A DNA stretch of 64,000 nt from an uncultured Acidimicrobiales bacterium (GTDB lineage: Bacteria; Actinomycetota; Acidimicrobiia; Acidimicrobiales; VFJN01), in contig CAWJGJ010000001.1 in assembly GCA_963842395.1 (NCBI GenBank), positions 1,834,889-1,898,888 of the forward strand, written 5' to 3'. The notes beneath the pieces are model-generated. The model saw only the letters and a list, made by a program, of their open reading frames with translations. It ran no database searches and had not been told where the DNA came from. A program made the position numbers and the translations under genes. Numbering within the stretch: the stretch's first letter is position 1; each line of letters starts with the position of its first letter. Positions 13,405-46,669 of the stretch are shown piece after piece.

Positions 13405-13436
13405 GGGGCGGTCGGGGCTCAGGCTCCGACCGCCCC
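13405..13436. terminator. GC-rich hairpin between convergent genes (bidirectional terminator candidate)
   Basis: Perfect 11-bp inverted repeat GGGGCGGTCGG (13405-13415) / CCGACCGCCCC (13426-13436) with a 10-nt loop. The regulator's stop codon lies in the loop. No clear U-tract. Confidence 0.5.
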
Positions 13437-21597: not shown

Positions 21598-21633
21598 GGC
21601 GGGCTCCCTTCGATCGTCCGGTCGTGGTCGTGG

Positions 21634-22398: not shown

Positions 22399-22406
22399 CG
22401 GCTCGT

Positions 22407-23138: not shown

Positions 23139-23232
23139 CTGGCGGTTGTGCTCCCCCGGGGCGTCTGTAACAGTGTCATAGTTGCATGTGAGCTCCGTCC
23201 CGGCAACGCGCACGGAACGGCGAGGGGGGCCA

Positions 23233-25517: not shown

Positions 25518-26456
25518 TCAGCCGTGGGACTCCCGTTCCCCGGACTGCGGCGTGACGGTGGCCAGCCGGGCGGGATCGCCGCGGAGCGAGCCCGGGCCCG
25601 GGAGGCCCATCACCCGACTCGCCACCCGCTGGAAGAGCCGGGCGGGCATGAGGCGACCGCCGACCGCCATCAGGCGCGCATCGGGCCCCACCGAGCGGCG
25701 GGCGAACGGGGCCCGGTCCGTCACGGCACGCGCCAGGGCCGGTGCAAACCGTTCGGGCGAGCGGGCCAGGCGCAGGATCCAGCGGCTGGCGCTGGCGAGC
25801 CCGGCATGGTGCGCCGCATAGGGCCCGTCTGCGTCGGCGTACGTCCGTGTCAGCTCGAGGATGTCGGTCTTGAACGTCCCGGCGACGAGGATCGTGACGC
25901 CGATGCCGAAGGGCGCGACCTCCGGGGACAGCGCCTCGGCCCACCGTTCGAGCGCCCCCTTGGCCGCCGAGTAGGCGCTGATCGTGGGCATGCCCCGGAC
26001 GCCGCCCTGGCTGGAGACGACGACGATCCGCCCGCGGCCGGCGGCGCGCATGGCCGGCAACAGCTCCTGGGTGAGCCGCACGGGACCGAAGAAGTTCGTC
26101 GAGAAGACCTCGGCGTACACGCTGGGCGGCGTCTCCTCGACGCAGCCGACGGCGGCGACGCCCGCATTGTGGACCAGCGCGTCGGGAGCGCCCACGGCCT
26201 CGCCGATCGCCTGGGCGGCGGCCGCGATCGACGCCGGGTCGTCGAGGTCGAGGCGGACGGCGACGAGGCGCGGATCGCCGGCATCGGCGCCGGTCGCGGC
26301 GCGCAGGCGCTCCAACGCGACGTCGGGCGAGCGCACCGCGGCGACGACCGTCCACCCCTGGCGGTGGAGGTGGGCGGCCGAGGCGAGGCCGAGGCCCCGT
26401 GACGCGCCGGTGACCACGACGCTCCCGGGTTCGCCCACCTTCGCTCTCGTAGCCAC
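25518..26456 (-). CDS. SDR-family oxidoreductase
   Basis: GTG 26456 preceded by GGGAGGGG; the tracked ORF start at 26498 is also GTG. Motifs VVTGASRGLG, HNAG and YSAAKGAL. Confidence 0.8.
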   Translation of the reverse strand: MATRAKVGEPGSVVVTGASRGLGLASAAHLHRQGWTVVAAVRSPDVALERLRAATGADAGDPRLVAVRLDLDDPASIAAAAQAIGEAVGAPDALVHNAGVAAVGCVEETPPSVYAEVFSTNFFGPVRLTQELLPAMRAAGRGRIVVVSSQGGVRGMPTISAYSAAKGALERWAEALSPEVAPFGIGVTILVAGTFKTDILELTRTYADADGPYAAHHAGLASASRWILRLARSPERFAPALARAVTDRAPFARRSVGPDARLMAVGGRLMPARLFQRVASRVMGLPGPGSLRGDPARLATVTPQSGERESHG

Positions 26457-26477
26457 GGGCTCGCCCCTCCCATTCGC

Positions 26478-26494
26478 GACCGAATATTTGTTCC
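26478..26494 (-). promoter_or_regulatory. AT-rich recurrent box, copy a (GACCGAATATTTGTTCC)
   Basis: 21 nt upstream of the SDR start at GTG 26456. Confidence 0.45.
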
Positions 26495-26538
26495 GCACGC
26501 TAGTCCCCGTGCCGGCGGCCCCGGCAATCGGCGCGGCC

Positions 26539-27336
26539 TCAGCCGTCCCCCTCGGGCAGGTAGGCGTCGATCATCTCGACCAGGCCCGCGGTCACCACGG
26601 GATCGTCGGTGAGCGGACCGGCGACCGCGGCCCGTGCGGCTTCCCGCGGAGGCAGGCCCTCGGCGACGAGGCGCCCCGCGGCGATCAGCACGCGGGTCGA
26701 CGCCACCTCCCGGAGCCCTGCGGTCTCCAGGCGGCGGATCGCCTGGCCGAGCAGCACAAGCTGCGCCGCCCTCTCGGGCTCGACGCCGGCCTCGTGCGAG
26801 ACGATCTTCTCCTCGACGTCGGGCGGCGGGAAGCCCAGCTCGATCGCGATCATGCGCTGGCGCGTCGAGTCCTTGAGGTCCTTGAGGACGCTCTGGTACC
26901 CGGGGTTGTAGGACACCACCAGGCAGAAGCCCGGAGCGGCGTCAAGGACCACGCCGAGGCGATCGATCGGCAGCTGGCGCCGGTGGTCGGCGAGCGGGTG
27001 GATCACCACGGTCGTGTCCTGCCGGGCCTCGACGACCTCGTCGAGGTAGCAGATAGCGCCCTCCCGCACGGCCCGGGTCAGCGGCCCGTCGACCCAGCGC
27101 GTCTCGCCGCCCTGGAGGAGGAAGCGCCCGACGAGGTCGGCGGTGGTGAGGTCGTCGTGGCACGACACCGTGACGAGCGGCCGATCGAGGTCGTGGGCCA
27201 TTGCCTCGACGAACCGGGTCTTCCCGCACCCGGTCGGCCCCTTCAGCATGACCGACAGCCCCTGCCGGAACGCCGCGGTGAACACCTGCTCCTCGCTGCC
27301 GACGGGCACATAGTAGGGCCGCGGCCCGGTGGTCAT
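26539..27336 (-). CDS. CbbQ/NirQ/NorQ/GvpN-family AAA+ (MoxR-class) ATPase
   Basis: 265-aa sub-ORF from ATG 27336. PYYVPVGSEE...LKGPTGCGKT (Walker A), ICYLDEV (Walker B) and CHDDLTTADLVGR are typical of the CbbQ/NorQ subfamily. An ATGA overlap links it to the upstream VWA gene. Confidence 0.8.
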   Translation of the reverse strand: MTTGPRPYYVPVGSEEQVFTAAFRQGLSVMLKGPTGCGKTRFVEAMAHDLDRPLVTVSCHDDLTTADLVGRFLLQGGETRWVDGPLTRAVREGAICYLDEVVEARQDTTVVIHPLADHRRQLPIDRLGVVLDAAPGFCLVVSYNPGYQSVLKDLKDSTRQRMIAIELGFPPPDVEEKIVSHEAGVEPERAAQLVLLGQAIRRLETAGLREVASTRVLIAAGRLVAEGLPPREAARAAVAGPLTDDPVVTAGLVEMIDAYLPEGDG

Positions 27337-29099
27337 GAGGTCCTCCTGTGAAGCTCGAGCCGCACCCGGCTGCGCTCCCTGCGCTGGAACACGCGGCGCT
27401 GCGCCTCCGCCGAACGCAGCGCGGCGCGCAGCAGCGGTCCGATCAGCTCCGGCAACTGCTCGGGGGTGGGGATCGTGGCGTGGGCCGCGGTGCCGAACAC
27501 CCGCCGGAGCGCCGCCGGCTCGGTGCCGGCCCCGATGCTGAGACAGAGGCAACCCGTGCCCCGGCGGCGGACCTCGGTGAGGGCGCGCCGTGCGTCGGCC
27601 TCGCCGTACGGGCCCTCGTAGCCGTGGTCGTACGCGAACCCGTCCGAGAGGACGAGGAGGACCCGGCGGGCGGTCCCGCCGCGCTCCTCCAGCACGGTCC
27701 CCCCGTGGCGGATGGCGGCGCCGAGCCTGGTGTAGGCCGCCGGCACGAGGCCGCCGAGGCGCCGGATGGCCCGGCCGTCGAGCTGGTCGTCGAACCGCTT
27801 CACCCGCGTGACGTGCACCGCCCGCCGGCCCTGGGAGTTGAAGGCGTACAGCGCCACGCGGTCGCCCAGGTCGTGGAGCGCGGTCGTCAGCGCCGCGGCG
27901 GCCGACCGCTGGTGCTCGTGCACCGTCCGGCCCGCCGCACCGGGCTCCCCCGCCGAGCCGGAGATGTCGAGCAGGACCAGGACGGCGAGGTCGCGTCGAC
28001 GGCGGAGGCTTTCGACGTAGACCGCGTCGTCGGGCGGCGAGCCCGCCAGCACCTCCACCCGGGCCTCGACCACGGCGTCGATGTCGATGTCGTCGCCCTG
28101 CATCTGCCGGTGGCTGCGGGTGAGGCCGGTGCCGAGGCGGGCGAGCGGTCGCCGCAGCGCCGCGCCGTCGGGCACATCCATCGGCGCCAGGTCGGCGGGA
28201 CGGGGGTCGCGCTCGTGCACGGTGCACCAGCCTGGGCGGTAGCGCCGCCGGTTGGCGTCCCACTCGGGATACGTCCTCGCCCGTGGCACGAACGCCTCGG
28301 TCGCGTCGTGCGCCTCCGGCACACCGTCGGCGTGCGCGGCCCGACGGCGGTCCCCGGGCCCGGCCCGGCCGGCATGGGTCGGCGTGTCCGCGCCCGCGGG
28401 ACCGCCGCCACCGCGCTCGCGCGTCGGGCTGAGCAGGCGCTGGAGCAGTCGCCCGAGCACTCCCCCGCCCCCCACCGGGCTCGACAACATGTGTCCCACG
28501 CTCGGCCCGTCACCGTCGTCGTCGAGATCGTCGTCGAGATCGTCGACGCCTGATCGGCCTGCCCCCGCCGGTGAGCCAGGAGCCTGGTCCGGCGACGGCC
28601 CGACGGCCTCGGCTCGTTCGAGTGCGGCGAGCAGCCGGCGCGGCCGGATCGTGCCGAAGGCTCCCGGCGGATCGTCGAGCACCCGGCCACCCCGGGCGAT
28701 CGCCAGCGAGGCCTCGGCCGCATCGGGCCCCGACCCGACCCCGCGGTCGGTCAACGCCCGCACGACCGGGGGGAGGAGCCCGTCGTTCGCCGCCAGAGCG
28801 CGGTGACCCTCCACGGCGAGATAGCGCCGGGCCAGCGCCGACCGGCGGCCGAGCTGCCGCACGACGCGCGCCTCGAGGCTCCCGGCGGCGAGGAGCGAGG
28901 CCTGCACCGCCACCATGCGGATCTGCTCGGTCGGGGTGGCCCGGGCGTCGACGAACACCGTCGTGCCGTCGGTCCAGGCGGGCTCGCCGGGGCCGCCGTC
29001 GGCGACCTCGAGCGTGCGCCCCCCGAGCGCCGACGCCAGCAGCCGGAGCCGATCGACGCCCGTGGCGTGGGCCGCGTCGTCCACTGCCAGACCTAACAT
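27333..29099 (-). CDS. NorD/CbbO-like von Willebrand factor A domain protein
   Basis: 588 aa. C-terminal VWA with MIDAS LLDISGS...LVLSDG, an acidic linker (DDLDDDLDDDGDG) and a long N-terminal region as in NorD/CbbO. The start could be ATG 29099 or GTG 29081 (ambiguous). Confidence 0.7.
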   Translation of the reverse strand: MLGLAVDDAAHATGVDRLRLLASALGGRTLEVADGGPGEPAWTDGTTVFVDARATPTEQIRMVAVQASLLAAGSLEARVVRQLGRRSALARRYLAVEGHRALAANDGLLPPVVRALTDRGVGSGPDAAEASLAIARGGRVLDDPPGAFGTIRPRRLLAALERAEAVGPSPDQAPGSPAGAGRSGVDDLDDDLDDDGDGPSVGHMLSSPVGGGGVLGRLLQRLLSPTRERGGGGPAGADTPTHAGRAGPGDRRRAAHADGVPEAHDATEAFVPRARTYPEWDANRRRYRPGWCTVHERDPRPADLAPMDVPDGAALRRPLARLGTGLTRSHRQMQGDDIDIDAVVEARVEVLAGSPPDDAVYVESLRRRRDLAVLVLLDISGSAGEPGAAGRTVHEHQRSAAAALTTALHDLGDRVALYAFNSQGRRAVHVTRVKRFDDQLDGRAIRRLGGLVPAAYTRLGAAIRHGGTVLEERGGTARRVLLVLSDGFAYDHGYEGPYGEADARRALTEVRRRGTGCLCLSIGAGTEPAALRRVFGTAAHATIPTPEQLPELIGPLLRAALRSAEAQRRVFQRRERSRVRLELHRRTS

Positions 29100-29106
29100 T
29101 TGTTCA
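29090..29106 (-). promoter_or_regulatory. AT-rich recurrent box, copy b (GACCTAACATTTGTTCA)
   Basis: Overlaps ATG 29099 of the NorD-like gene, in the region divergent from the amidohydrolase at 29205. Confidence 0.5.
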
Positions 29107-29204
29107 TACTGGTTCCCGCGGGTTCACGCCGTCAACGAACCCACCGTGAGCGGCAGCCGGCGCTCCCCGACCCGCGGGCGGTGACCCTGTGCGATCGTGT
29201 CGTG

Positions 29205-30205
29205 ATGACCGACGCACCCCCGGCGGGGACCGACGAGTGGCGGGCGCTGGTCGACGAGCCGATCGTCGATCCCGACCAGCGGATGGTTGACGCCCACCAC
29301 CACCTGTGGCGCCCGGGCGAGGGCATGGGCTACGGGTTGGCCGAGCTGCTCGCGGACGTCGGCAGCGGGCATGACGTGGCGCGGACGGTGTTCGTCGAAT
29401 GCGGGTCGTCCTACCCGCGGGTGGACCGCCGGAGCTGGCGCCCGTGGGAGAGACCGAGTTCGTGGCGGGCGCGGCCGCCGACAGCGGTGGCCTGATCGGG
29501 GGCATCGTCGCCCACGCCGACCTGCGGCTCGCCAAGCTCGACGACATCCTCGACGCCCACGTCGACGCAGGCCGGGGGCTCCTGCGGGGCATCCGCCACT
29601 CGCTGGCGCGCGGCGACCGGGCCGACGGGCTGACGATCCCCGGCCGGGCACCGGCGGGACTGTCGGAGGACCCCGGGTTCCGGGCCGGGGTGGCCCTGCT
29701 GGGCGCCCGCGGGCTCACCTACGACACCTGGCAGTACCACTACCAGGCCCGGGAGTTCCTCGACCTCGCCCGGGCGGTGCCCGACACGCTCATGGTGCTC
29801 GATCACTTCTGCACGCCCCTCGGGGTGGGCCGCTTCGCCGGCCGGCGCGACGAGCTCTTCGACGCCTGGCGGGACGACATCACGGAGATCGCCCGCTGCG
29901 ACAACGTGGTGGCCAAGCTCGGCGGTCTCGCCATGCCGGACAACGGCTTCGGCTGGCACACCCGCGCGCACCCACCCACCTCCGACGAGTTCGTCGCCGC
30001 CCAGGGCCGCTACTACCTCCACATGCTCGACTGCTTCGGCGCGGACCGCTGCCTGTTCGAGTCGAACTTCCCCGTCGACCGCCTCTCGCTGTCCTACCGG
30101 ACGCTGGGCAACGCGGTGAAGAAGGTCCTGCGCGACTGCTCGGCCGCCGAGCGCGACGCCGTCTTCCACGGCACCGCCACACGCGTCTATCGGCTCGACG
30201 TCTGA
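29205..30205 (+). pseudogene. amidohydrolase-2 family protein (COG3618-like), single frameshift
   Basis: Frame A gives MTDAPP...MVDAHHHLW...VFVECGSSY. Frame B continues AGGPPELAPVGETEFVAG...LDHFCTP...FESNFPVD. The switch is at the CCC run 29414-29416; one extra C would restore the frame. Confidence 0.7.
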
Positions 30206-30376
30206 CCGCCGGCCAACCGGGCGCCGGTGCCCGCCCGCCGGCGGGACGTGGGAAACGGTGCGGCCTCTGGCACACTGACGGCCGCCCGGCGCGAAGCGTC
30301 CCTGATTCAGCACGTCTCGTGTGATCCGCGCCGGCCTCCAGCGACGAACAACCGCCCCATGGAGAGGACTTGCCGC

Positions 30377-30955
30377 ATGGACGATCGACGTCGGGGCCGT
30401 TGGGCGGAGCAGGTGCTGGTCGAGCGTCTGTCCCGCGGCGACGAGACCGCCCTCGCCGACCTCTACGACCGCTATGCGGGCTTCGTGCACGCCCTGGCCC
30501 TGCGCGTCGTCGCCAACCGGCCCGCAGCCGAGGACATCACCCAGGACGTGTTCGTCTTCCTGTGGGAGCACCCGGAGCGGATCGAGCCCGGGCGGGGCAG
30601 CCTGCGGGGGTTCCTCGGGACCGTGACCCACCGCCGGGCCGTCGACGTCGTCCGGCGGGAGGAAGCCCGCAAGCGCCGCGAGGAGCGGGCCGGGCCGGGG
30701 GACGCCGTCCCGCCACCCGACGAGACCGAGGCGGTGATCCACTCCGACACCCGCGGCAAGGTTCGCACCGCGGTCGACCTCCTCCCCGAGGCGCAACGGC
30801 GAGCGGTCGAGCTCGCCTACTTCCACGGCTACACGTACCGGCAGGTCGCGGTGGCACTGGGCATACCCGAGGGCACCGCCAAGTCGCGGATGCGCCTGGC
30901 GCTGGCCCGGATCGCCGAGATCCTCCAACCCGAGCTGAGTGAGCGATGGACATGA
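30377..30955 (+). CDS. ECF sigma factor
   Basis: ATG 30377, 8 nt after GGAGAGGA. Sigma-2 region (DLYDRYAGFVHALALRV, DITQDVFVFLWE) and sigma-4 region (YRQVAVALGIPEGTAKSRMRLAL). Confidence 0.8.
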   Translation: MDDRRRGRWAEQVLVERLSRGDETALADLYDRYAGFVHALALRVVANRPAAEDITQDVFVFLWEHPERIEPGRGSLRGFLGTVTHRRAVDVVRREEARKRREERAGPGDAVPPPDETEAVIHSDTRGKVRTAVDLLPEAQRRAVELAYFHGYTYRQVAVALGIPEGTAKSRMRLALARIAEILQPELSERWT

Positions 30956-33308: not shown

Positions 33309-33310
33309 GG

Positions 33311-36472: not shown

Positions 36473-36539
36473 CTCGGGCCGAGCGGCCTGGCGGTATCAC
36501 TTGACTCCGCACCGGGGAAGGCGCAGTCTGCGCGGCGCA

Positions 36540-36556
36540 GAACCTAAGATTTGTTA
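36540..36556 (-). promoter_or_regulatory. AT-rich recurrent box, copy c (GAACCTAAGATTTGTTA)
   Basis: 36 nt upstream of SBP ATG 36593. Contains TAAGAT on the plus strand. Confidence 0.5.
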
Positions 36557-36592
36557 CGCGAGAGCCGTGTTCTCGCGCGACGGGGGGATCAC

Positions 36593-37900
36593 ATGGGAGT
36601 TTCGGGGGAAGCTTCGGGGCACGCCGGTCGGCACAGGCACGCACTGGCGATCGCAGCAGTGGGCACGCTGCTGCTCGGGGTCGTTGCATGCGGCGGCGAC
36701 GACACGTCGTCGCCGAGCCCGTCGGGCTCGGAGGACAGCCCGCCGGCGGACGAGCTGCTCGGGCCCGAGGAACCGGCATCCGGCGAGCCGCTGCGCATCG
36801 GGATGGTCTCGGACGGCCAGGCCCCGGCGTTCGACGCCCGGTCCGAGCTGCGGGCGGTCGAGGCGACGGTCGAGTACTGGAACGCCCACCGGGCTGGGAT
36901 CGGCGGCCGGCCGATCGAGCTGGTGACCTGCGAGACGCACGCCGATCCGGCCGGCGGCACGGACTGCGGCAACCAGATGGTCGAGGAGGACGTCGTCGCC
37001 GTCGCCCTCGGGCAGTCCACGGTGGCGGAGTCGGTCTGGGAGCCGCTGCACGAGGCCGGCATCCCCACGCTGTTCTCACTGGCCATCGGCGATGCCATGC
37101 TCGGCGACCCGGACACGAGCTTCGTGCTCTCCAACCCGCTCACCACGGCCTTCGGCCTCCCGATCTCCGTGGCCCAGGACGAGGGCGCCGACAAGGTCAC
37201 GTTCGTCCTCATCGACGTCCCCCAGGCGCTCACGGTGTTCGAAGGCGACAGCGCCGATCGCATCCTCGAGAACGCCGGGCTCGACTACGACGTCGTCAAG
37301 GTGCCGCCGGGAACCGCGGACATGACGTCGCAGATGGCCGAGGTCGTCGAGGGCGGTGCGGGGGTCGTGCAGGTGGTCGGCCACGACGCGTTCTGCATCT
37401 CCGCCCTGCAGGGGCTGCACAGCGTCGGGTACGAGGGCGCGATCACCGGGATCTCGCAGTGCTTCACGGACGCCACCCGGGAGGCGATCCCCGGCGACCA
37501 GCTCGAGGGGACCTACGTCACGTCCACCATCGCCCTCGGCGCGACCGACGACCCGACCTACCAGCTGTACGAGGCGGTCATGGATGCGTATGGAGACGAT
37601 GTCGAGGACGTCGACAACAACGTGCCCATGGCGGGTTACACCGTGATGGCATCCCTCGCGTCGGCCCTCGACGGGATCTCGGGCGACGTCACGCCGGCGA
37701 CGGTCACCGAGGCCATCAAGGCGATGCCGGAGCAGGAGATGCCCGGAGGGGGCGGCGCGAGCTTCCGATGTGGCGGGTCCGCCATGACGACGATGCCGGC
37801 GGTGTGCACCAACCAGTGGCTCCGGGCGACGCTCGACGCCGACGGGCAGCCGGCGGGCTACGAGGTCGTCGACTCGACGGAGATCCTCGCCGGGCTGTAG
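36593..37900 (+). CDS. ABC-transporter substrate-binding lipoprotein (LivK/Peripla_BP_6-like), orphan
   Basis: ATG 36593 after GGGGGGA. Lipobox LLLGVVACGGDD. The overall pattern matches branched-chain amino acid/amide type SBPs. No permease or ATPase gene is adjacent. Confidence 0.65.
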   Translation: MGVSGEASGHAGRHRHALAIAAVGTLLLGVVACGGDDTSSPSPSGSEDSPPADELLGPEEPASGEPLRIGMVSDGQAPAFDARSELRAVEATVEYWNAHRAGIGGRPIELVTCETHADPAGGTDCGNQMVEEDVVAVALGQSTVAESVWEPLHEAGIPTLFSLAIGDAMLGDPDTSFVLSNPLTTAFGLPISVAQDEGADKVTFVLIDVPQALTVFEGDSADRILENAGLDYDVVKVPPGTADMTSQMAEVVEGGAGVVQVVGHDAFCISALQGLHSVGYEGAITGISQCFTDATREAIPGDQLEGTYVTSTIALGATDDPTYQLYEAVMDAYGDDVEDVDNNVPMAGYTVMASLASALDGISGDVTPATVTEAIKAMPEQEMPGGGGASFRCGGSAMTTMPAVCTNQWLRATLDADGQPAGYEVVDSTEILAGL

Positions 37901-37987: not shown

Positions 37988-39277
37988 TCACGAGGTCACC
38001 TCGAGGTGGAGCGCCCGCAAGCCGCGGAGGACGTACGTCGGGTCGTATTCGTAGCGTCGGGCGCCGGGAGGGCCGTGCTCCGCCTCGGAGATGCGGATGT
38101 CGGACGTCCGATCGAAGAGGCGGTGGAGTGCGACCCGGGCCTCGACGCGCGCCAGGGGCCCTCCGGGGCACGAGTGGATGCCACGTCCGAATGCGACCTG
38201 CTCGCGCGCGTTCGGGCGGTCGACGTCGAGGTCGTCGGGCGCATCGAAGCGGCGGGGGTCGCGGTTCGCGGCGTGGGGGAACACGGCGACCGTGGCGCCT
38301 GCGGGGATGTCGACGCCCGCGAGCGTGGTGCTCACCCGAGCCAGCCGCGAGACCGTCTTGACCGCGCCCTCCAGCCGCAGCACCTCCTCCAGGAAGTCGG
38401 GAAGCCGATCCCGGTCTGTGCGCAGGCGGCGCTGGAGCGCAGGGTCGTCGCCGAGGATCCGCAGCGCAGCGGCGATGATGCGGGCCGTGGTGTCCTGACC
38501 CGCGGCGAAGAGGAACGTCGCCGTCCGCACGACGTCGATGACCTCGGGTAGGCGGCCGTCCGGATAGGTCGCGGTCGCCAGGTGGGTGAGGACGTCCCCG
38601 CGTGGGTTGCGGCGGCGATCCTCGACGTACGCGGTGAACGCGTCGTTCAGGAACGCCAGCGGATCGAGCAGCACGTCGGTCGCTTCGCCGCCGACCGCCG
38701 TCCCCCGGTCGACACCCAGCTGCCGGGCGAAGGTCCGGTGGTCCTCCTCGGGCACCCCGAGGAGGTCGGCGATGACGAGGGCCGCGAACGGCTGCGAGAA
38801 GTCCCTGATCACCTCGAACCGGCCGGCGGCCAGTGCGTGGTCGAGCTGGCGGTCGGCCAGCCGCCAGATGAACGCCTCGTTCTCCTGCAGGCGCTTCGGC
38901 GTGAACAGCCGCATGAGGAGACCGCGCAGCGCGGTGTGCGCGGGCTGGTCCTGCGTCACCAGGTACTCCCCCATCGGGAGCCCGGCGCGGTGCTCCTCGA
39001 TGACGTCGGTGATGTCGTCCCCGTGCGGGGTGACCGGCAGCCCGGGGAACGGGCCGGTCACCGCGATGCACGACGAGAACGTCCGGTGGTCGCGCCACAC
39101 GTCCAAGGCCTCGTCGTAGCCGGTGACGGCCACCACGCCGTGGTGAGGCAGAGGGGTCACGGGGTGCATCCGGCGCAGCCGGTCGAAGTACGGGAACGGG
39201 TCGTCGACCAGGGACAGGTCGGTGAAGATGTCGGGGACGTCGTCGTTCGTCATCTCGAGGCCGTCTCCGTCTGTCAC
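37988..39277 (-). CDS. cytochrome P450
   Basis: 429 aa. Heme-ligand loop FGRGIHSCPG and an EXXR motif. A GTGA overlap links it to the upstream ferredoxin gene. Confidence 0.85.
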   Translation of the reverse strand: MTDGDGLEMTNDDVPDIFTDLSLVDDPFPYFDRLRRMHPVTPLPHHGVVAVTGYDEALDVWRDHRTFSSCIAVTGPFPGLPVTPHGDDITDVIEEHRAGLPMGEYLVTQDQPAHTALRGLLMRLFTPKRLQENEAFIWRLADRQLDHALAAGRFEVIRDFSQPFAALVIADLLGVPEEDHRTFARQLGVDRGTAVGGEATDVLLDPLAFLNDAFTAYVEDRRRNPRGDVLTHLATATYPDGRLPEVIDVVRTATFLFAAGQDTTARIIAAALRILGDDPALQRRLRTDRDRLPDFLEEVLRLEGAVKTVSRLARVSTTLAGVDIPAGATVAVFPHAANRDPRRFDAPDDLDVDRPNAREQVAFGRGIHSCPGGPLARVEARVALHRLFDRTSDIRISEAEHGPPGARRYEYDPTYVLRGLRALHLEVTS

Positions 39278-39471
39278 GTCTCGGTCGAGAGTGCCTGCTC
39301 GGGGCAGCTCCGGACGGCGCGGGCCGCCTGCGCCTCATGGCGGTCCGGGACGTGCCCGTCGGGCACGACGAGGGCGACATGGCCCTCCTCGTCGGGACCG
39401 AAGATCTCGGGAGCCAGGTCGTAGCACCGCCCGTGGCCCTGGCAGCGTTCGTGGTCGACGACGATCTGCAC
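39274..39471 (-). CDS. small ferredoxin (3Fe-4S/4Fe-4S type, P450 redox partner)
   Basis: 65 aa. CQGHGRC...SCP cysteine pattern. GTG start with TACGCT 7 nt upstream, which looks leaderless. Confidence 0.75.
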   Translation of the reverse strand: MQIVVDHERCQGHGRCYDLAPEIFGPDEEGHVALVVPDGHVPDRHEAQAARAVRSCPEQALSTET

Positions 39472-39501
39472 GCCGGCGAGCGTAGCCCCGGGTTAGCTTG
39501 T

Positions 39502-39518
39502 GGACAAATGTTTGGTTT
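39502..39518 (+). promoter_or_regulatory. AT-rich recurrent box, copy d (GGACAAATGTTTGGTTT, opposite orientation)
   Basis: Lies between the ferredoxin-P450 operon (GTG 39471) and the tandem TetR gene (39658). Confidence 0.5.
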
Positions 39519-39657
39519 GCAGGTCGTCGGCGGAACCCGGGGTCGATCTGCTGGTGGGCCGCACCTCGTGGCGCGTCGCCACCGGCAGTACCGGCGCCGA
39601 CCAGGGCTAACATCCGCTCCACGTTCGGTACCGTCGCCGTCAGGTCGATGCCCAGGA

Positions 39658-40911
39658 GTGGACGCCGTGTCGGTAGACGGGGCCCGTAGAACCGAGATCC
39701 TCGAGACCGCCGCGAGCTTGTTCGCGTCCTCGGGGATCCGCACCTCGCTCAAGCAGATCGCCGACGCCTGCGGCATCCTGCCGGGCAGCCTCTACCACCA
39801 CTTCGAGTCCAAGGAAGCGATCATCGTCGAGCTGATCGAGCGGTACCGGGCCGACCTCGACGACATCGCCAAGACGGGGCTCGACGAGTTGCACGAGCCG
39901 GGGCGGGCGCCCGTCTCCGACAGGATCGTGGCGCTCAGCTCCGCCATCGCCGCCTGCGCCGTTCGGCATCGGGCCGCGGTGCTCCTGACCTTCTACGAGC
40001 CACCCTCGGGTTCGGGCGACGAGCTGGTGCGCGTCGCCCAGGGGACGCCGCTGGAGATCGAGGCCGTGATGCTCGAGATCCTCCGGGCCGGCCGGGAGAG
40101 CGGAGACATCCGACCGGGCATCGACCTCGAGACGCTGGCCGAGCGGCTCTGCCAGACACTGCTCTACATCAGCCTCGGCGTGTTCCGCGACGTCCGCGGC
40201 GCCGACCAGCTGCCGGCGATCAGGTGCCGCATCCTGCTGGAGGGCGTGGCCGTCGCGGCGCCGACGAACGCCGCGCTCGACGCGTCGAGCGCGTTCCTGG
40301 CCGCTCAGCAGGTGGTCGACTCCTGGGACAAGGCCGAGGACGAGGAGGACGAGCGGGTCGCGCAGCTCCGAGCCGTCGCCCGCGCCGAGTTCGGCCGGCG
40401 GGGCTACGAGGCCACCACGATCAGGGACATCGCCGCGGCCGCCGGGCTCAGCACCGGCAGCGTCTACCGCATGATCGGCTCCAAGGACGACCTCCTCGCG
40501 TCGATCATGCAGTCGATACCCACGAAGGTGCGATCGGCCTGGACGAGCGTGCTCGAGTCCGACGCCACGAGCGTCGAGAAGCTCGACGCTCTGATGTGGA
40601 CCAACATCAACGTCGTCGACCGGTTCCGCGACGAGTACAACATCCAGCTCGCCTGGCTGCGCGAGTCGCCGCCCACGTCCTCCGACCTCGGGCAGACCTT
40701 CTCGGCGCGCCTGAACGACCTCAAGACGCTGCTCGCCGACGGCACCCGTTCCGGCGAGCTCCACCTCGAGGGCCCGTCAGCCGACATCCGCACCTGGGCG
40801 CTGCTCGACCCCATGTGGATGCACGAGACCATCGTGCACAAGGTCGGTCCCCGCGCCGCCCTCGCGCTCGCCCGCGACACCGTCCTGCGCGGCGCCGCCC
40901 GGCGCCCCTGA
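39658..40911 (+). CDS. tandem (double) TetR-family regulator
   Basis: Two complete TetR units in one chain. The first HTH is SLKQIADACGILPGSLYHHFESKEAI and the second is TTIRDIAAAAGLSTGSVYRMIGSKDDL. Start is GTG 39658 or 39667, after AGGAG. Confidence 0.7.
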   Translation: MDAVSVDGARRTEILETAASLFASSGIRTSLKQIADACGILPGSLYHHFESKEAIIVELIERYRADLDDIAKTGLDELHEPGRAPVSDRIVALSSAIAACAVRHRAAVLLTFYEPPSGSGDELVRVAQGTPLEIEAVMLEILRAGRESGDIRPGIDLETLAERLCQTLLYISLGVFRDVRGADQLPAIRCRILLEGVAVAAPTNAALDASSAFLAAQQVVDSWDKAEDEEDERVAQLRAVARAEFGRRGYEATTIRDIAAAAGLSTGSVYRMIGSKDDLLASIMQSIPTKVRSAWTSVLESDATSVEKLDALMWTNINVVDRFRDEYNIQLAWLRESPPTSSDLGQTFSARLNDLKTLLADGTRSGELHLEGPSADIRTWALLDPMWMHETIVHKVGPRAALALARDTVLRGAARRP

Positions 40912-40973: not shown

Positions 40974-42178
40974 TCAGGCAGTGCGGTGCAGCAGCATCGG
41001 GAAGCGCTCGAGCGTCCGGATCCCCGCCGTGTAGTTGAGCTCCACGCCCGGCTTCAGGCAGTAGTCGGGTATCCGCCGGTGCCACTCGCGCAGCGCGACG
41101 CGCAGCTCCAGGCGCGCCAGGTGCGACCCCAGGCAACGATGGATCCCTCCACCGAACGCGAGGTGGCGGTTGGTGTCCCGGTCCCACCTGAGCTCCCCCG
41201 CCTCGGGGAACTCGGCGTCGTCGACGTTGGCGGCGCCGATGATGGCCATCACGTGCTCGCCGGCACTGATCGGGCAACCGCCGACCTCGGCGTCGCCCGT
41301 GGCGATGCGGGCGACCGCCATGACCGGGGTCTCCCACCGGAGCAGCTCCTCGACCACCGTCGGGATCGTCTCCGGTTCGTCGACGAGCTTGCGGCGGGCG
41401 TCCGGATCCTGGGCGAGCCGGCCGAAGAAGCAGTCGAGCGACGCCGTCACCGTGTCGAGACCGGCGATCAGGAAGAGGAAGCAGATGTCGAGGATGTCCT
41501 CGCGGGTGAGCCGGTCACCGTCGACCTCGACGTGCAGGAAGTGACTGAGGAGGTCGTCGCGTCGCTCCCCGCGCGCTCGTCGAGCACGCGCTCGAAGTAG
41601 GCGTAGATCGAGTCCGCGGTCTGCTGCTGGTGCGCCTCGGTCTCGGGATGGCCGAACTCGTGCCCGACGACGACGTCGGGGCGGATCACGCCGTCCTTCA
41701 TGCGCACGAACGCCGGCAGCTCGTCGAGCGGGAGGCCGAACAGCGTGAGGAACACCTGGGACGGGAACGGCACCGAGAACTGCGCGGCGAAGTCGATCTC
41801 GTCATCGTCGACGAACGCATCGACGAGGTCGTTCACGAGCCGCGTGACCGGCTCCTCGAGCGCCTTCATCCGCTGCGGCGCGAACAGGGGGTCGAGGATC
41901 CTGCGGTAGGTCCGGTGCGCCGGCGGATCGATCTGCAGCGGGATCAGCGGCCGCCTGGTCTTCAGGTCGTGGGCCGACATGTTGGACGAGTACAGGTCGG
42001 GATGGCGGAGGACCTCGTCCACCCCCGACCGGGACGTGACGACGACACCGACCCCGTCGACGCGCAACACCGGGGCGCTCTCCCGGAGAGCCACGTAGGT
42101 CGGCTGCGGGTTCCGCGCCAGCTCGGGGCTCATCAGCTGAGCCATCGCAACCCCATCGGTCTGCGTCGGTTCGCGCAT
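40974..42178 (-). pseudogene. cytochrome P450, single frameshift
   Basis: The N-terminal frame (ATG 42178) reads up to ...YFERVLDERAG. The C-terminal frame continues ERRDDLLSHFLHVEVDGDRLTREDILDICFLFLIAGLDTVTASLD...FGGGIHRCLG. The switch is at the CCCC run 41567-41570 (plus strand); one extra base would restore the frame. Confidence 0.7.
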
Positions 42179-42197
42179 GGCCTGACCCTAGCAGCCA

Positions 42198-42214
42198 GAA
42201 CCTAATGTTTGTTC
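42198..42214 (-). promoter_or_regulatory. AT-rich recurrent box, copy e (GAACCTAATGTTTGTTC)
   Basis: 19 nt upstream of ATG 42178 of the frameshifted P450. Confidence 0.5.
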
Positions 42215-42222
42215 GGCGCGCC

Positions 42223-42558: not shown

Positions 42559-42570
42559 GAGACCTCCTTG

Positions 42571-42612
42571 CACAAATCGACAATCATCGATATATTCACC
42601 GTTGTCCATACG
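42571..42612. promoter_or_regulatory. AT-rich arsR/arsI divergent control region with a TCGA-N6-TCGA dyad
   Basis: cacaaATCGAcaatcATCGATATattcaccgttgtccata stands out against the GC-rich background, between divergent arsR and arsI/cadI starts. Confidence 0.5.
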
Positions 42613-42630
42613 TTACCGGAGGAACCCACC

Positions 42631-43107: not shown

Positions 43108-43148
43108 CGACTCCCATCGACCGGGCGGGGGGCCCGCCCGGTCACGAC

Positions 43149-45183: not shown

Positions 45184-46380
45184 TCAGGTGCCGCCGGGAC
45201 CGCACCGGCCCCCGTCGGCCGGTGGCTGCACGTCCGGACGTCCATCCGGCTGAGCGCTCATCCACGACGACCAGATGCCCTCCGAGTACGGGCCCGGCTG
45301 GCCGTTCTCCTCGTAGAACCCCTGCGGGTCGTAGACCTTGGCTTCCGGATACGGCCACGGGCACGCCACCGAGGTGGCGACCCTGGTGTCGCGGATGATG
45401 CCGAAGGCCAGGAAGTACCCGAGGTAGGCGACGTTCAGGATCGCGAGCATCACCAGGAAGGTGCCGAGCGCCGGGCGCCCGGCGAAGATCCGCACCCGCT
45501 GGGCCAGCTTCTCCGCGACGGTCCGGCCGGTGTCGTCCCGGTAGAGCAGCACCCCGGCGGGGATCATCACCAGGGTGACGAGCGAGGACTCCCACAGCAG
45601 CGGGAACTGGAAGGCGGTGCCCGTGAACACCGACCCGAACGGGATGACCTGCGTGTAGATGTACAGGCCGGTGCGGATGCACAGGATCTCGAGGACGGCG
45701 TCGAAGACGAACCCGATCGGGTAGATCAGCAACGACAGGCTGATGAGCGGGTGGCGTGACACGAAGGAGTCGGTGGGCCGACGGGCCTGGAGCCTGCGCA
45801 GGATCCACGATGCCGGGAAGAACGGGGTCACGTAGAAGAGCGCGTACCCGATGACGACGAGCGGCTCGACCACGGGCGCGATCGAGAACAGCGGCCAATC
45901 CTCGGGCCAGTGCCACAGCTCGGGGTTGTAGGCGGCGTACGGCGACCAGTTCACGAGCGGATCCCACCAGACGATCCCGGTGGCGGCGATGACCATCAGC
46001 AGGATGGGGTGGCGGGGGTACCGCCGCCAGGCGAGCACCACGCTCCCCACGAGCAGCACCATGCTGACGAGGGTCCCGACCTGCAGGATCGTCACCCAGT
46101 TGGTCCAGCCGAACAGGTAGGTCACCGGTCGCGGCGCGCCGGTCACCTCCGGGTTGCGCACGCGGTCGGACGACTCGACCCCCGTGCGGGCGTAGTAGGC
46201 GATGACGCAGATGAGCGCGAAGGCGAGCGCCCAACCCCCGATCACGAGCCGGCGCTTCGCGACGGGGCCCGTGCCGTGGTCCCGGGTCGGCGTCGTCAGG
46301 CCGGCCTCGACGCCAGGGCTCCCGACCGGGGCGCTCGAGCCTGGGTGTTCCCGAACATCGGCTTCGCTGGGATGGCTCAC
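45184..46380 (-). CDS. polytopic membrane protein, possibly AveC (spirocyclase)-family
   Basis: 398 aa, about 7-8 TM, Trp-rich loops (WWDPLVNWSPYAAYNPELWHWPEDWP; AFQFPLLWES) that I recall from AveC-like proteins. GTG start 6 nt after TAGGTT with TTGACG 16 nt further upstream. Confidence 0.55.
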   Translation of the reverse strand: MSHPSEADVREHPGSSAPVGSPGVEAGLTTPTRDHGTGPVAKRRLVIGGWALAFALICVIAYYARTGVESSDRVRNPEVTGAPRPVTYLFGWTNWVTILQVGTLVSMVLLVGSVVLAWRRYPRHPILLMVIAATGIVWWDPLVNWSPYAAYNPELWHWPEDWPLFSIAPVVEPLVVIGYALFYVTPFFPASWILRRLQARRPTDSFVSRHPLISLSLLIYPIGFVFDAVLEILCIRTGLYIYTQVIPFGSVFTGTAFQFPLLWESSLVTLVMIPAGVLLYRDDTGRTVAEKLAQRVRIFAGRPALGTFLVMLAILNVAYLGYFLAFGIIRDTRVATSVACPWPYPEAKVYDPQGFYEENGQPGPYSEGIWSSWMSAQPDGRPDVQPPADGGRCGPGGT

Positions 46381-46385
46381 GGGGC

Positions 46386-46402
46386 CAACCTAACATTTGT
46401 TT
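46386..46402 (-). promoter_or_regulatory. AT-rich recurrent box, copy f (CAACCTAACATTTGTTT), part of a full promoter
   Basis: On the minus strand: TTGACG-N16-TAGGTT-N6-GTG(46380). The box covers the spacer plus the -10. Confidence 0.6.
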
Positions 46403-46669
46403 CGGACCCGTCAAGCGCCGGACGGCCCTGCGAGGCACATGGTGACCACGCGCACGGGGCCCGCATGTGCTCCTCAGCGACGTGCACCCGGCGAGAGCGC
46501 CGAATTTCCGCATCCGACAGCGTCATAGTCGGCCGCCGCCGCCCTCTCAGTGCGCAACAGGGGGCGGACGTGGAGACAGACGATGAACGCCATGGCGCCC
46601 GGCAACGTGGCAGTCGGGCCAGGGTGCGACGCCGTACCCGGCGTCTCTGTCCTGTGAGACGGAGATCGC

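What the first reader, a model, noticed from the sequence alone, without database searches (positions are those of the whole stretch)
26539..29099. NorD/NorQ (CbbO/CbbQ)-type VWA + AAA+ pair with no NOR or RuBisCO nearby, in reversed gene order, among amidohydrolases
Seen: a 588-aa VWA protein (MIDAS LLDISGS) is coupled by an ATGA overlap to a 265-aa CbbQ/NorQ-type AAA+ ATPase (GPTGCGKT, ICYLDEV). The order here is D then Q, whereas known systems are usually Q then D. An SDR gene follows. A (frameshifted) amidohydrolase is divergent, and copies of the AT-rich box sit at both ends of the unit.

Established: Q/D(O) pairs are client-specific remodellers. NorQD inserts the non-heme iron into cNOR, and CbbQO reactivates RuBisCO.

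Neither norBC nor cbbLS/M, nor gas-vesicle genes, are in this 64-kb window. Inference: the client is something else. The surrounding metal-dependent amidohydrolase-2 enzymes are the obvious candidates. That would be a new client class for this chaperone family.
Basis: partly seen in the sequence, partly recalled or inferred. Interest (0 to 1): 0.6.

Follow-up and report, generated by a model that had tools for sequence, protein, structure and literature searches.

The report
NorQ/NorD-like chaperone pair, AveC-linked clade
This is a real NorQ/NorD-type ATPase + VWA chaperone pair, but it belongs to a large uncharacterised clade that almost always sits beside a seven-helix AveC-like membrane protein and a cytoplasmic binding-protein-like partner, so those, not the nearby amidohydrolases, are its likely client.

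Summary
A 588-aa VWA protein (D, 27333-29099, minus strand) overlaps a 265-aa AAA_5+CbbQ_C ATPase (Q, 26539-27336) by ATGA. An SDR gene follows, a two-frame amidohydrolase is divergent, and the AT-rich boxes are real. No NOR, RuBisCO or gas-vesicle gene is in the window.

The amidohydrolase-client idea is not supported. Of 64 related genomic loci with enough flank:
- all 64 keep D then Q, and all 64 have an AveC-like (PF17198) 7-TM protein;
- 63 have a cytoplasmic Peripla_BP_6-like protein, and 59 have the orthologous SDR;
- only 9 have any amidohydrolase.

The usual operon is D-Q-PBP-AveC-SDR-ALDH-P450. In a search seeded with AveC, 23 of 25 loci had a D relative by BLAST. One of the two exceptions carries a more divergent D-Q pair.

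The AT-rich box is a conserved operator-like motif (GAAC-N9-GTTC). It occurs six times in the window, in front of D, the SDR, the AveC-like gene, two P450 genes/the double TetR, and a PBP gene. It recurs in 78 of 80 related loci.

This window is a rearranged copy. The native PBP-AveC pair is missing between Q and the SDR, and a divergent AveC-like gene lies 16 kb away.

Q is about as far from NorQ (59%) and CbbQ (54-56%) as those are from each other. The D N-terminal domain is clade-specific. I found no published characterisation.

The parts
27333..29099 (-). D: NorD-like VWA partner, 588 aa. It has a clade-specific N-terminal domain (about residues 8-165), a disordered linker (about 166-272), a TYPEWD hairpin, a finger region, a VWA domain with MIDAS residues D378/S380/S382/T457/D486, and an extra C-terminal helix (549-587). 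The true start is probably a few codons downstream of 29099.
   Evidence: NorD 9qhd_G E 3.5e-43 over residues 252-551; AF2 model; Foldseek NorD VWA E 9e-16; N-terminal domain found in only 440 representative clusters
26539..27336 (-). Q: CbbQ/NorQ-type MoxR AAA+ ATPase, 265 aa. It has Walker A GPTGCGKT, Walker B YLDEV, and the H2i motif GRFLLQGGET. It overlaps D by ATGA.
25518..26498 (-). SDR oxidoreductase, orthologue of the SDR that ends the D-Q-PBP-AveC-SDR core in relatives (88% identical to L083). The likely true start is the GTG at about 26438, downstream of the box.
26474..26495 (+). Operator box between Q and the SDR. In relatives the equivalent box precedes the PBP-like gene.
29086..29107 (+). 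Operator box at the D 5' end, in the region shared with the divergent frameshifted amidohydrolase.
45184..46389 (-). AveC-like (PF17198) 7-TM membrane protein, the constant genomic partner of this D/Q clade. Here it is a divergent copy displaced 16 kb from Q.
   Evidence: (AveC_like 2e-67)
46383..46404 (+). Operator box at the 5' end of the AveC-like gene.
39226..40911 (+). Double-TetR regulator (two TetR_N domains), 74-77% identical to the regulator of related clusters. Candidate binder of the box. The aligned part starts at about 39613.
39500..39521 (-). Operator box in the divergent region between a P450 gene and the double-TetR gene.
37988..39334 (-). Cytochrome P450, orthologue of a recurrent cluster P450 (52% identical to the L017 copy).
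40977..42178 (-). Cytochrome P450 that in the closest relatives lies directly upstream of D (85% identical to the L001 copy). It is interrupted by a 1-nt deletion in a G run near 41560.
42195..42216 (+). Operator box upstream of that P450 gene.
36548..37900 (+). Peripla_BP_6 protein, 450 aa, of a different type from the cytoplasmic PBP-like partner. It recurs next to the double TetR in some relatives.
36537..36558 (+). Operator box at the 5' end of that PBP gene.
29205..30205 (+). Divergent Amidohydro_2 gene (fuconolactonase-like) split by a frame change near 29410-29420. It shares the D promoter/operator region and is not a conserved neighbour of the clade.

Best explanation
D and Q form an ATP-driven MoxR/VWA remodelling complex of the NorQD/CbbQO type. 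They belong to a third clade, distinct from both NorQD and CbbQO.

By analogy with NorQD (inferred, not shown here), Q forms a hexamer, the D VWA finger inserts into the pore via the Q H2i loops, and the MIDAS face and the clade-specific N-terminal domain engage the client.

The client I think most likely is the AveC-like seven-helix membrane protein, probably together with the cytoplasmic binding-protein-like subunit that normally lies between Q and AveC. The four genes are the invariant core of a catabolic cluster for an unidentified hydrophobic substrate. That cluster also holds SDR, aldehyde dehydrogenase, P450 and acyl-CoA dehydrogenase genes, is often next to Mce transporter genes, and carries an operator-like box that a double-TetR repressor probably binds. 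Whether the action is metal insertion, assembly of the membrane complex, or substrate handling is unknown.

In this window the cluster has been rearranged:
- the native PBP-AveC pair between Q and the SDR is gone, leaving the operator box in place;
- a divergent AveC-like gene with its own box sits 16 kb away next to arsenic-resistance genes;
- D, Q and the SDR remain intact.

Steps shown: family identity, synteny, reciprocal linkage, the shared operator motif, and the rearrangement. Steps inferred: physical interaction with AveC/PBP, the mode of action, and the identity of the regulator.
For: Identity:
- Q has AAA_5+CbbQ_C and matches NorQ at 2e-94 and CbbQ at 1e-87.
- Q carries GRFLLQGGET, which fits the NorQ H2i motif GRxLL/IxxxxT (PMC13036017).
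- The D VWA, finger region and MIDAS residues align with NorD. Foldseek's top hits are NorD VWA domains, E 9e-16.

Distinct clade:
- Q identity is at least 72.5% within the clade, 59% to NorQ and 54-56% to CbbQ. NorQ and CbbQ are 54% identical to each other. The clade is monophyletic in a neighbour-joining tree.
- The D N-terminal domain does not match NorD. It occurs in only 440 representative clusters out of 1.84 billion, and in the 150 hits listed it lies at or near the N-terminus in nearly all.

Synteny:
- At least 401 genomic relatives were found.
- Of 64 loci with at least 6 kb downstream, the counts are Q 64, AveC-like 64, PBP-like 63, SDR 59, ALDH 52, and amidohydrolase 9.
- The hosts are Mycobacterium, Mycolicibacterium, Pseudofrankia, Aldersonia, Nocardia, Acidimicrobiia, Binatia and some Proteobacteria.

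Reciprocal test seeded with AveC in metagenomes:
- Of 25 loci with enough upstream sequence, 23 have D, 22 have Q and 23 have PBP.
- One apparent exception, L085, carries a more divergent pair in D-then-Q order (Q 52% identical) beside an Mce operon.

Shared operator motif:
- There are six boxes in the window, each at the 5' end of a cluster gene, and no other site scores above the threshold.
- The same motif is in 78 of 80 related loci, with 189 hits against 2 in a reversed-sequence control.

Rearrangement:
- The closest relative L083 keeps P450-D-Q-PBP-AveC-SDR.
- Against L083, dS is 0.26-0.28 for D, Q and the SDR but 0.63 for AveC. AveC is 68% identical to L083, whereas D is 84% and the SDR 88%.

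Constraint: pairwise dN/dS is 0.33 for D and 0.12 for Q.
Against: - All evidence for the client is genomic association. No interaction, expression or biochemical data exist.
- The AveC-like protein shows no clear metal site. The two histidines conserved in the main clade are not kept in a paralogous AveC-like group. Characterised AveC is, to my knowledge, cofactor-independent. A NorQD-style metal insertion therefore has no direct support.
- The AveC model is weak in its most conserved loops (pLDDT below 50) and has no PDB fold match.
- In this window the PBP-like gene is absent. The AveC-like copy is not the native one and has substitutions at positions at least 95% conserved elsewhere, for example Q142W. 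The pair here might therefore lack its proper client.
- The N-terminal domains of the two AveC-linked D clades are not alignable, which weakens the idea that this domain recognises AveC.
- The rest of the 3.3-Mb genome could not be searched for norB, RuBisCO or the PBP-like gene.
Confidence: 0.6

Rival explanations
1. One reading: the pair matures or loads metal into the neighbouring metal-dependent amidohydrolase-2 enzymes.
For: - The window holds five Amidohydro_2 genes.
- One of them is divergent from D and shares its operator region.
- In Nocardia nova an Amidohydro_2 gene lies between Q and the SDR.
- Another amidohydrolase family recurs in 8 of 80 loci.
Against: - Only 9 of 64 full loci have any homologue within +/-10 kb, against 64 of 64 for the AveC-like protein.
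- The amidohydrolases that do occur belong to different subfamilies and sit at variable positions.
- The other four amidohydrolase genes in the window have no operator box and sit in separate operons with their own TetR, ADC, CoA-ligase and hydratase genes.
Confidence: 0.05
2. The client is another conserved cluster member rather than AveC. One version: the cytoplasmic PBP-like protein is a substrate-carrying subunit, in the manner of a chelatase, with Q/D in the role of BchI/BchD or CobS/CobT and the PBP-like protein in the role of the H/N subunit. Another version: the client is the SDR or a P450.
For: - The PBP-like protein is present in 63 of 64 loci and the SDR in 59 of 64.
- The strongest operator copy precedes the PBP gene.
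- AAA_5/VWA pairs drive chelatases through a third, ligand-carrying subunit (established knowledge; bioRxiv 10.64898/2026.07.21.739949).
Against: - The PBP-like gene is missing in this window and in L071 and L046, while the AveC-like gene is kept.
- The divergent D-Q clade in L085 is linked to AveC with no PBP-like homologue detected by BLAST.
- The P450 and ALDH genes are variable.
Confidence: 0.17
3. In this particular genome the pair is an orphaned remnant. It lost its native PBP-AveC client genes in a recent deletion and no longer has a function, or is on the way to decay.
For: - PBP-AveC is missing exactly between Q and the SDR, whereas L083, L082 and L001 keep these genes.
- The AveC-like copy present has a different history.
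- Two cluster-associated genes carry frameshifts.
- Decayed clusters exist elsewhere, for example L165 with an AveC-like gene plus a truncated SDR and no D/Q.
Against: - D, Q and the SDR are full-length, and D keeps the residues invariant among its closest homologues.
- Pairwise dN/dS is 0.12-0.33.
- All six operator boxes and the regulator are intact.
- Both frameshifts are 1-nt changes, one of them clearly in a homopolymer run, and could be sequencing errors.
Confidence: 0.13
4. It is an ordinary NorQD or CbbQO whose cNOR or RuBisCO operon lies outside the 64-kb window.
For: - Source pipelines label members of this clade 'nitric oxide reductase NorD/NorQ protein'.
- The rest of the genome could not be inspected.
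Against: - Q is as far from NorQ and CbbQ as they are from each other.
- The D N-terminal domain is unrelated to that of NorD.
- The gene order is inverted.
- None of 80 genomic and 80 metagenomic loci shows a NOR or RuBisCO neighbour.
- The clade is common in mycobacteria and Nocardia, which are not known cNOR denitrifiers (established knowledge).
- The GvpN model scores 80 bits against a cut-off of 267.
Confidence: 0.03

Closest known systems
NorQ/NorD (cNOR FeB-insertion chaperone; PDB 9qh4-9qhg; PMC9976466, PMC13036017)
   Same: - Q is 59% identical to NorQ and has the same AAA_5+CbbQ_C architecture and the H2i GRxLLxxxxT motif.
- D shares the TYPEWD segment, the finger region, the VWA domain and the MIDAS DxSxS-T-D, with 33-34% identity over about 300 residues.
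- D has the same overall layout: N-terminal domain, disordered linker, VWA domain.
- If AveC is the client, both systems act on an integral membrane protein.
   Different: - The gene order is D then Q rather than norCBQD.
- There is no norCB neighbour.
- The D N-terminal domain is not detectably related to that of NorD.
- D has about 35 extra C-terminal residues, predicted as a helix, where the NorD C-terminus contacts the post-sensor-1 loop.
- The conserved neighbours are AveC-like and PBP-like genes.
- No evidence exists for metal insertion.
CbbQ/CbbO (RuBisCO activase; PDB 6l1q, 5c3c; PMC5437159)
   Same: Q is 54-56% identical to CbbQ and shares motifs such as ARQDTTVVIHPLxDHRR and YQSxxKDLKxST. 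It has a VWA partner with a MIDAS site.
   Different: - There are no cbbLS/M genes.
- D is 588 aa, shorter than CbbO (a figure from my own knowledge; I did not compare sequences).
- D was not compared with CbbO directly. No CbbO chain was among its PDB sequence matches.
- The gene order is reversed.
AAA+/VWA chelatase motors (BchI/BchD, CobS/CobT)
   Same: An AAA_5-type or related ATPase works with a VWA/MIDAS partner and a third, ligand-carrying subunit. CobS gives a weak NCBIfam hit to Q (5e-6).
   Different: No tetrapyrrole pathway genes are present, similarity is much lower than to NorQ/CbbQ, and the third component here would be a PBP-like protein plus a membrane protein.
AveC / MeiC spirocyclase family (PF17198) of avermectin-type polyketide clusters
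   Same: The constant partner gene belongs to this Pfam family (2e-67 to 1e-77).
   Different: The members here sit in catabolic-looking clusters rather than PKS clusters. They have seven predicted TM helices and are tied to a D/Q chaperone and a cytoplasmic PBP-like protein. Their function is unknown.

Membership tests
CbbQ/GvpN/NorQ-type MoxR AAA+ ATPase (Q) | AAA_5 ATPase domain followed by a CbbQ_C lid domain in a single module of about 260-270 aa | tested here: met
   Pfam AAA_5 3.3e-33 (residues 29-162) and CbbQ_C 1.6e-27 (residues 175-258)
CbbQ/GvpN/NorQ-type MoxR AAA+ ATPase (Q) | Walker A, Walker B and the helix-2-insert motif GRxLL/IxxxxT that grips the VWA finger | tested here: met
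   GPTGCGKT, ICYLDEV and GRFLLQGGET are read directly. The motif is as defined in PMC13036017.
CbbQ/GvpN/NorQ-type MoxR AAA+ ATPase (Q) | Close full-length similarity to solved NorQ and CbbQ | tested here: met
   9qhd_A 2.3e-94, 9qh4_A 2.2e-89, 6l1q_C 1.3e-87, 5c3c_A 2.8e-87
NorD/CbbO-type VWA partner (D) | C-terminal VWA domain with a complete MIDAS (DxSxS...T...D) | tested here: met
   D378-I-S380-G-S382, T457 (YTRLGAAIRH, identical to NorD) and D486, aligned to NorD. Foldseek NorD VWA E 9e-16.
NorD/CbbO-type VWA partner (D) | Finger insertion that enters the AAA+ pore | tested here: inconclusive
   The segment aligned to the region holding PdNorD finger residues 403-448 is present and conserved (GDDIDIDAVVEARVEVLAG...). 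In the AF2 model that region has pLDDT below 50 (residues 310-368), so its shape is untested.
NorD/CbbO-type VWA partner (D) | C-terminal residues that bind the post-sensor-1 loop of the ATPase | tested here: inconclusive
   The alignment to NorD ends at D residue 551-553, which corresponds to 9-12 residues before the NorD C-terminus. D continues for about 35 residues as a predicted basic helix (549-587) that is conserved in the clade to about residue 573.
NorQD system (cNOR maturation) | N-terminal domain of the VWA protein homologous to that of NorD | tested here: not met
   phmmer gives no significant N-terminal match (-1.3 and -4.0 bits). The D N-terminal domain is restricted to 440 representative clusters.
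NorQD system (cNOR maturation) | Genomic linkage to norCB, in the order Q then D | tested here: not met
   No NOR domain was found in the window's called genes or among the recurrent gene families of the 80 loci that were annotated. The order is D then Q in 78 of 80 loci.
CbbQO system (RuBisCO activase) | Genomic linkage to cbbLS/cbbM and a CbbO-type partner | tested here: not met
   No RuBisCO domain was found in the window or among the recurrent neighbours (same calls). The partner is 588 aa. No CbbO chain was among D's PDB sequence matches, and D was not compared with CbbO directly.
GvpN (gas vesicle) | Score above the GvpN equivalog cut-off and gvp gene neighbours | tested here: not met
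   TIGR02640 scores 80.1 bits against a cut-off of 266.8. There are no gvp genes.
D-Q-PBP-AveC module (clade defined here) | D then Q, adjacent or overlapping | tested here: met
   ATGA overlap. The same 4-nt overlap is seen in L081, L082 and L083.
D-Q-PBP-AveC module (clade defined here) | Cytoplasmic Peripla_BP_6-like gene directly after Q | tested here: not met
   There is no tblastn match in the window better than E 0.1, whereas 63 of 64 relatives have it.
D-Q-PBP-AveC module (clade defined here) | AveC-like (PF17198) membrane protein in the same operon | tested here: inconclusive
   It is present in the window at 45184-46389, but 16 kb away and of different ancestry. It shares the operator box.
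D-Q-PBP-AveC module (clade defined here) | Orthologous SDR downstream and the conserved GAAC-N9-GTTC operator box | tested here: met
   The SDR is 88% identical to that of L083. There are six boxes in the window and the motif is conserved in 78 of 80 loci.

The most novel reading that the evidence does not exclude
Q, D, the cytoplasmic binding-protein-like subunit and the seven-helix AveC-like protein together form a previously undescribed four-component membrane machine. In this reading a NorQD-type AAA+/VWA motor activates, assembles, or feeds substrate to an AveC-family membrane enzyme. That enzyme would start the breakdown of a hydrophobic compound in mycobacteria, Nocardia, Frankia, Acidimicrobiia and Binatia. 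This would be a third client class for CbbQ/NorQ-type chaperones and the first physiological role for non-polyketide AveC-like proteins.
Probability: 0.4. Interest if true: 0.75.

Novelty: new variant of a known kind. Interest (0 to 1): 0.6.

Why it matters
NorQD and CbbQO are the two well-studied examples of CbbQ/NorQ-type MoxR/VWA chaperones, and each serves one dedicated client.

This clade has at least 401 genomic relatives among species-representative genomes and thousands of metagenomic proteins. Some source pipelines label its members 'nitric oxide reductase NorD/NorQ', even though it has no link to NOR.

Its obligate partners point to a new client and to a function for AveC-like membrane proteins outside antibiotic biosynthesis. 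The setting is a regulated lipid- or hydrocarbon-type catabolic cluster that is common in environmental and non-tuberculous mycobacteria.

The conserved operator and its double-TetR regulator give a direct experimental route to the inducer and therefore to the substrate.

For this window specifically, the result corrects the proposed client and shows that the locus is a rearranged copy.

Tried and rejected
- Amidohydrolase as the client: rejected on synteny.
- Fold search of the AveC-like model against the PDB: no match (best E 1.8). The model is weak in its conserved loops.
- Profile search of the AveC-like family against PDB sequences: nothing found.
- PBP-like protein against PDB sequences: only distant ABC substrate-binding proteins (E at least 1e-4), so no hint of the ligand.
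- Alignment of the N-terminal domains of the two AveC-linked D clades by hhalign: only the VWA part aligns.
- Structural comparison of the D N-terminal domain with that of NorD: the Foldseek hits cover only the VWA region.
- Literature searches for NorQ/NorD/CbbQ together with spirocyclase/AveC/DUF5135/actinobacteria: no functional study was found. One paper only lists these annotations together in an M. avium strain-specific island (PMC10876796).
The host genome therefore could not be identified or searched for norB, RuBisCO or the PBP-like gene.
- Sigma-70 promoter and terminator scan of the unit: nothing found.
- A second D/Q pair in the window: none.

Full report
**1. What is in the sequence**

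The window has about 72% G+C, so I called genes by third-position GC.

- D: the ORF 27333-29099 (minus strand) encodes 588 aa containing LLDISGS.
- Q: the ORF 26539-27336 (minus strand) encodes 265 aa containing GPTGCGKT and ICYLDEV.
- The two ORFs overlap by ATGA, and a GGAGGA lies 8 nt before the Q start.
- Pfam gives VWA_2/VWA for D and AAA_5 + CbbQ_C for Q.
- An SDR gene (25518-26498, minus strand) follows Q.
- The divergent Amidohydro_2 gene is split between two frames near 29410-29420.
- An ECF sigma/anti-sigma pair follows the amidohydrolase.
- Pfam scans of the remaining called genes found no NOR, RuBisCO or gas-vesicle domain in the 64 kb.

**2. Family identity**

- Q matches solved NorQ (E 2e-94 and 2e-89) and CbbQ (E 1e-87 and 3e-87) over its full length.
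- Q carries GRFLLQGGET. This fits the GRxLL/IxxxxT helix-2-insert motif that grips the NorD finger in the 2026 cryo-EM structures (PMC13036017).
- D matches NorD only from residue about 250 onward (E 3.5e-43). The match covers the TYPEWD segment, the finger region, the MIDAS residues D378/S380/S382/T457/D486 and the rest of the VWA domain.
- An AF2 model of D shows these parts:
  - a confident N-terminal domain (residues 8-165, pLDDT about 90);
  - a disordered linker (166-272);
  - the VWA domain;
  - a C-terminal helix (549-587) that NorD lacks.
- Foldseek's best hits are the NorD VWA domains (E 9e-16).
- The N-terminal domain, which Kahle et al. (PMC9976466) proposed confers client specificity, has no detectable similarity to that of NorD.
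- An exhaustive HMMER search found this N-terminal domain in only 440 representative clusters out of 1.84 billion. In the 150 hits listed it lies at or near the N-terminus in nearly all, and the full-length ones are about 560-600 aa.

**3. A separate clade with a fixed D-then-Q order**

I examined the best 80. The hosts are Acidimicrobiia, many Mycobacterium, Mycolicibacterium and Mycolicibacter species, Pseudofrankia, Aldersonia, Streptosporangiaceae, Binatia and a few Proteobacteria.

- Q follows D in 78 of 80 loci by BLAST, and the other two are short contigs.
- Q sequences within the clade are at least 72.5% identical. They are 59% identical to NorQ and 54-56% to CbbQ.
- NorQ and CbbQ are 54% identical to each other.
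- The clade is monophyletic in a neighbour-joining tree. This tree had only four reference sequences, so it is limited.

**4. Conserved neighbourhood: the key result**

In most loci about 2.3 kb separate Q from the orthologous SDR. That gap holds two genes:
- a 370-aa Peripla_BP_6 protein with no signal peptide;
- a protein of about 380 aa with an AveC_like domain (PF17198, E 1e-77).

De novo clustering of ORFs from all loci gives the recurrent order D-Q-PBP-AveC-SDR-ALDH-P450(s). Upstream lie an SDR, a double-TetR regulator and acyl-CoA dehydrogenases. Mce proteins recur among the neighbours in some loci.

Counted by tblastn, the 64 loci with at least 6 kb downstream of D contain:

| Gene | Loci with it (of 64) |
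|---|---|
| Q | 64 |
| AveC-like | 64 |
| PBP-like | 63 |
| SDR | 59 |
| ALDH | 52 |
| Any Amidohydro_2 homologue | 9 |

Amidohydrolases do occur as sporadic accessories. One example is between Q and the SDR in Nocardia nova SH22a.

**5. Reciprocal test**

I seeded a metagenome scan with the AveC-like alignment.
- Of 25 loci with at least 4.3 kb upstream of AveC, 23 have D, 22 have Q and 23 have the PBP-like gene.
- One apparent exception, L085, has a more divergent pair 3 kb away, again in D-then-Q order, next to an Mce operon. Its VWA protein is 32% identical to D in the VWA region, and its ATPase is 52% identical to Q.
- A similar second pair lies near an AveC-like gene in L071.
- The other exception, L106, was not examined further.

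The link between the AveC-like protein and a D/Q pair therefore spans two D/Q clades. Rare solitary AveC-like genes do exist. L165, for example, has one next to a truncated SDR.

**6. The AT-rich box is a conserved operator-like motif**

- Extended to about 22 nt (consensus GAACCTAAyATTTGTTC, with inverted GAAC/GTTC ends), it has six copies and no other site above the score threshold. The copies are:
  - 26474, between Q and the SDR;
  - 29086, at the D 5' end, shared with the divergent amidohydrolase;
  - 36537, at a PBP_6 gene;
  - 39500, between a P450 gene and the double-TetR gene;
  - 42195, upstream of a P450 gene;
  - 46383, at the AveC-like gene.
- A matrix built from these six sites finds the motif in 78 of 80 related loci. 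There are 189 hits against 2 in a reversed-sequence control.
- In relatives it lies in front of D, Q, PBP, P450, TetR and luciferase-like genes, and the strongest copy is between Q and the PBP gene.
- This ties the D-Q-SDR unit in the window to the distant AveC-like gene by shared regulation.
- That the double TetR binds the box is my inference.

**7. This window is a rearranged copy**

- The AveC-like gene is at 45184-46389 (minus strand), 16 kb from Q. It is followed by ArsR-ArsC, an aquaglyceroporin and ArsR genes, and then by the P450 that in relatives lies directly upstream of D.
- No cytoplasmic PBP-like gene is in the window.
- The closest relatives keep the canonical order. L083 has P450-D-Q-PBP-AveC-SDR, and L082 has D-Q followed by a gene cut off at the contig end.
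- Against L083, dS is 0.26-0.28 for D, Q and the SDR, but 0.63 for the AveC-like gene. Protein identities are 84%, 94%, 88% and 63-68% respectively.
- The native PBP-AveC pair was therefore lost from between Q and the SDR, leaving the box, and the AveC-like gene present has a different history.
- D and Q remain intact, with pairwise dN/dS of 0.33 and 0.12.
- Two cluster-associated genes carry 1-nt frameshifts, one of them clearly in a homopolymer run. These may be sequencing errors.

**8. What the partner proteins look like**

- The AveC-like protein has seven predicted helices.
- By the positive-inside rule the N-terminus is cytoplasmic and the C-terminus is outside. The most conserved loops and an invariant Cys pair lie outside. 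The invariant basic or acidic cytoplasmic loops are WRRxPRHP, RRxQARRP...RHP and YRDDTGR.
- The model is poor in the conserved loops, and no PDB fold or sequence match exists.
- No clear metal site emerges. The conserved histidines are not kept in a paralogous AveC-like group.
- I therefore do not claim metal insertion.
- The PBP-like protein is only remotely similar to solved ABC substrate-binding proteins.

**9. Interpretation**

The best-supported reading is that D/Q is a dedicated remodelling or assembly factor for the AveC-like membrane protein. It probably acts together with the PBP-like subunit, within a co-regulated oxidative catabolic cluster that the double TetR probably controls. 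Mechanistic detail is inferred by analogy with NorQD.

Rivals, in order of weight:
- the PBP-like protein or another cluster enzyme is the true client;
- the pair in this genome is an orphaned remnant;
- the amidohydrolase proposal;
- a conventional NorQD or CbbQO with a distant operon.

**10. Novelty**

Five full-text searches found no study of this module. [quoted passage not shown] Some source pipelines label members of the clade 'nitric oxide reductase NorD/NorQ protein'.

I rate it a new variant of a known kind: a third clade of CbbQ/NorQ-type chaperones with an inverted gene order and a new presumptive client.

Caveat: older comparative surveys of MoxR subfamilies in subscription journals were not searchable here and may have noted this group.

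Noticed in passing
window 42223-45183: An arsenic-resistance block (ArsR-ArsC fusion 44425-45183, MIP/aquaglyceroporin 43149-44024, ArsR 42223-42612) sits between the AveC-like gene and the P450 that normally precedes D. It looks like an insertion associated with the rearrangement of the cluster.
   Followed up: partly
window ~41560 and ~29410-29420: Two single-base frameshifts: one in the P450 gene (four G where the reading frame of relatives needs five), and one in the divergent amidohydrolase. Both are 1-nt changes typical of long-read assembly errors, so pseudogene status is uncertain.
   Followed up: partly
L085 14050-16421; L071 3368-5220: A second, more divergent VWA + CbbQ-type pair (Q about 51-52% identical, D about 32% in the VWA region), also in D-then-Q order and also near an AveC-like gene. 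In L085 it lies beside an Mce (MlaD x3) operon. The AveC to D/Q link therefore spans two clades.
   Followed up: partly
L081 (Nocardia nova SH22a CP006850.1 3254092-3275234): Variant order PBP-AveC-D-Q-Amidohydro_2-SDR, followed by a 192-aa AveC-like fragment on the opposite strand, then ALDH. An MlaE-family gene is cut at the upstream end of the locus.
   Followed up: no
L045, L020, L026, L074, L075, L077 (ORF cluster 28): A shorter paralogous AveC-like membrane protein (about 270 aa) occurs in six clusters in addition to the main AveC-like gene. It lacks the HWPE histidine of the main clade.
   Followed up: no
many mycobacterial loci, e.g. L017 11667, L009 11670: In mycobacteria D and Q are separated by 45-250 nt, and this gap contains a weaker copy of the operator box (CTTGAACCAAACATCTGTTCCG). 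In Acidimicrobiia and Nocardia the two genes overlap by ATGA.
   Followed up: no
window 30227-32022: A SigK-like ECF sigma factor with an overlapping anti-sigma factor. The anti-sigma factor carries a mycothiol maleylpyruvate isomerase N-terminal (DinB-like, metal-binding) domain.
   Followed up: no
window 13419-16406 (-): A 995-aa protein with an AAA_16 domain, in a stretch of 79% G+C, the highest in the window.
   Followed up: no
window 49632-58250: A Tad/Flp pilus-type cluster (TadE/G-like, RcpC/CpaB, ParA-like ATPase, T2SSE ATPase, T2SSF) followed by a KaiC/DnaB_C-like ATPase.
   Followed up: no
window 2324-5602: A 1092-aa ORF combining FG-GAP repeats and an ASPIC/UnbV domain, with a weak NQR2/RnfD-like match in its N-terminal part. 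It may be two genes merged by the stop-to-stop call.
   Followed up: no
window 20356-24522, 32088-35756, 62757-63998: Four further Amidohydro_2 genes lie in separate operons with an acetoacetate-decarboxylase-like gene, TetR regulators, an enoyl-CoA hydratase and an acyl-CoA ligase. None has the operator box. The copy at 62757-63998 is 42% identical to the amidohydrolase that recurs in 8 related clusters.
   Followed up: partly
protein collection, clusters of P0005-P0120 and P0243-P0255: JGI/IMG names members of this clade 'nitric oxide reductase NorD protein' or 'NorQ protein' (some D members 'Mg-chelatase subunit ChlD'). This naming by homology has no support from gene context.
   Followed up: partly
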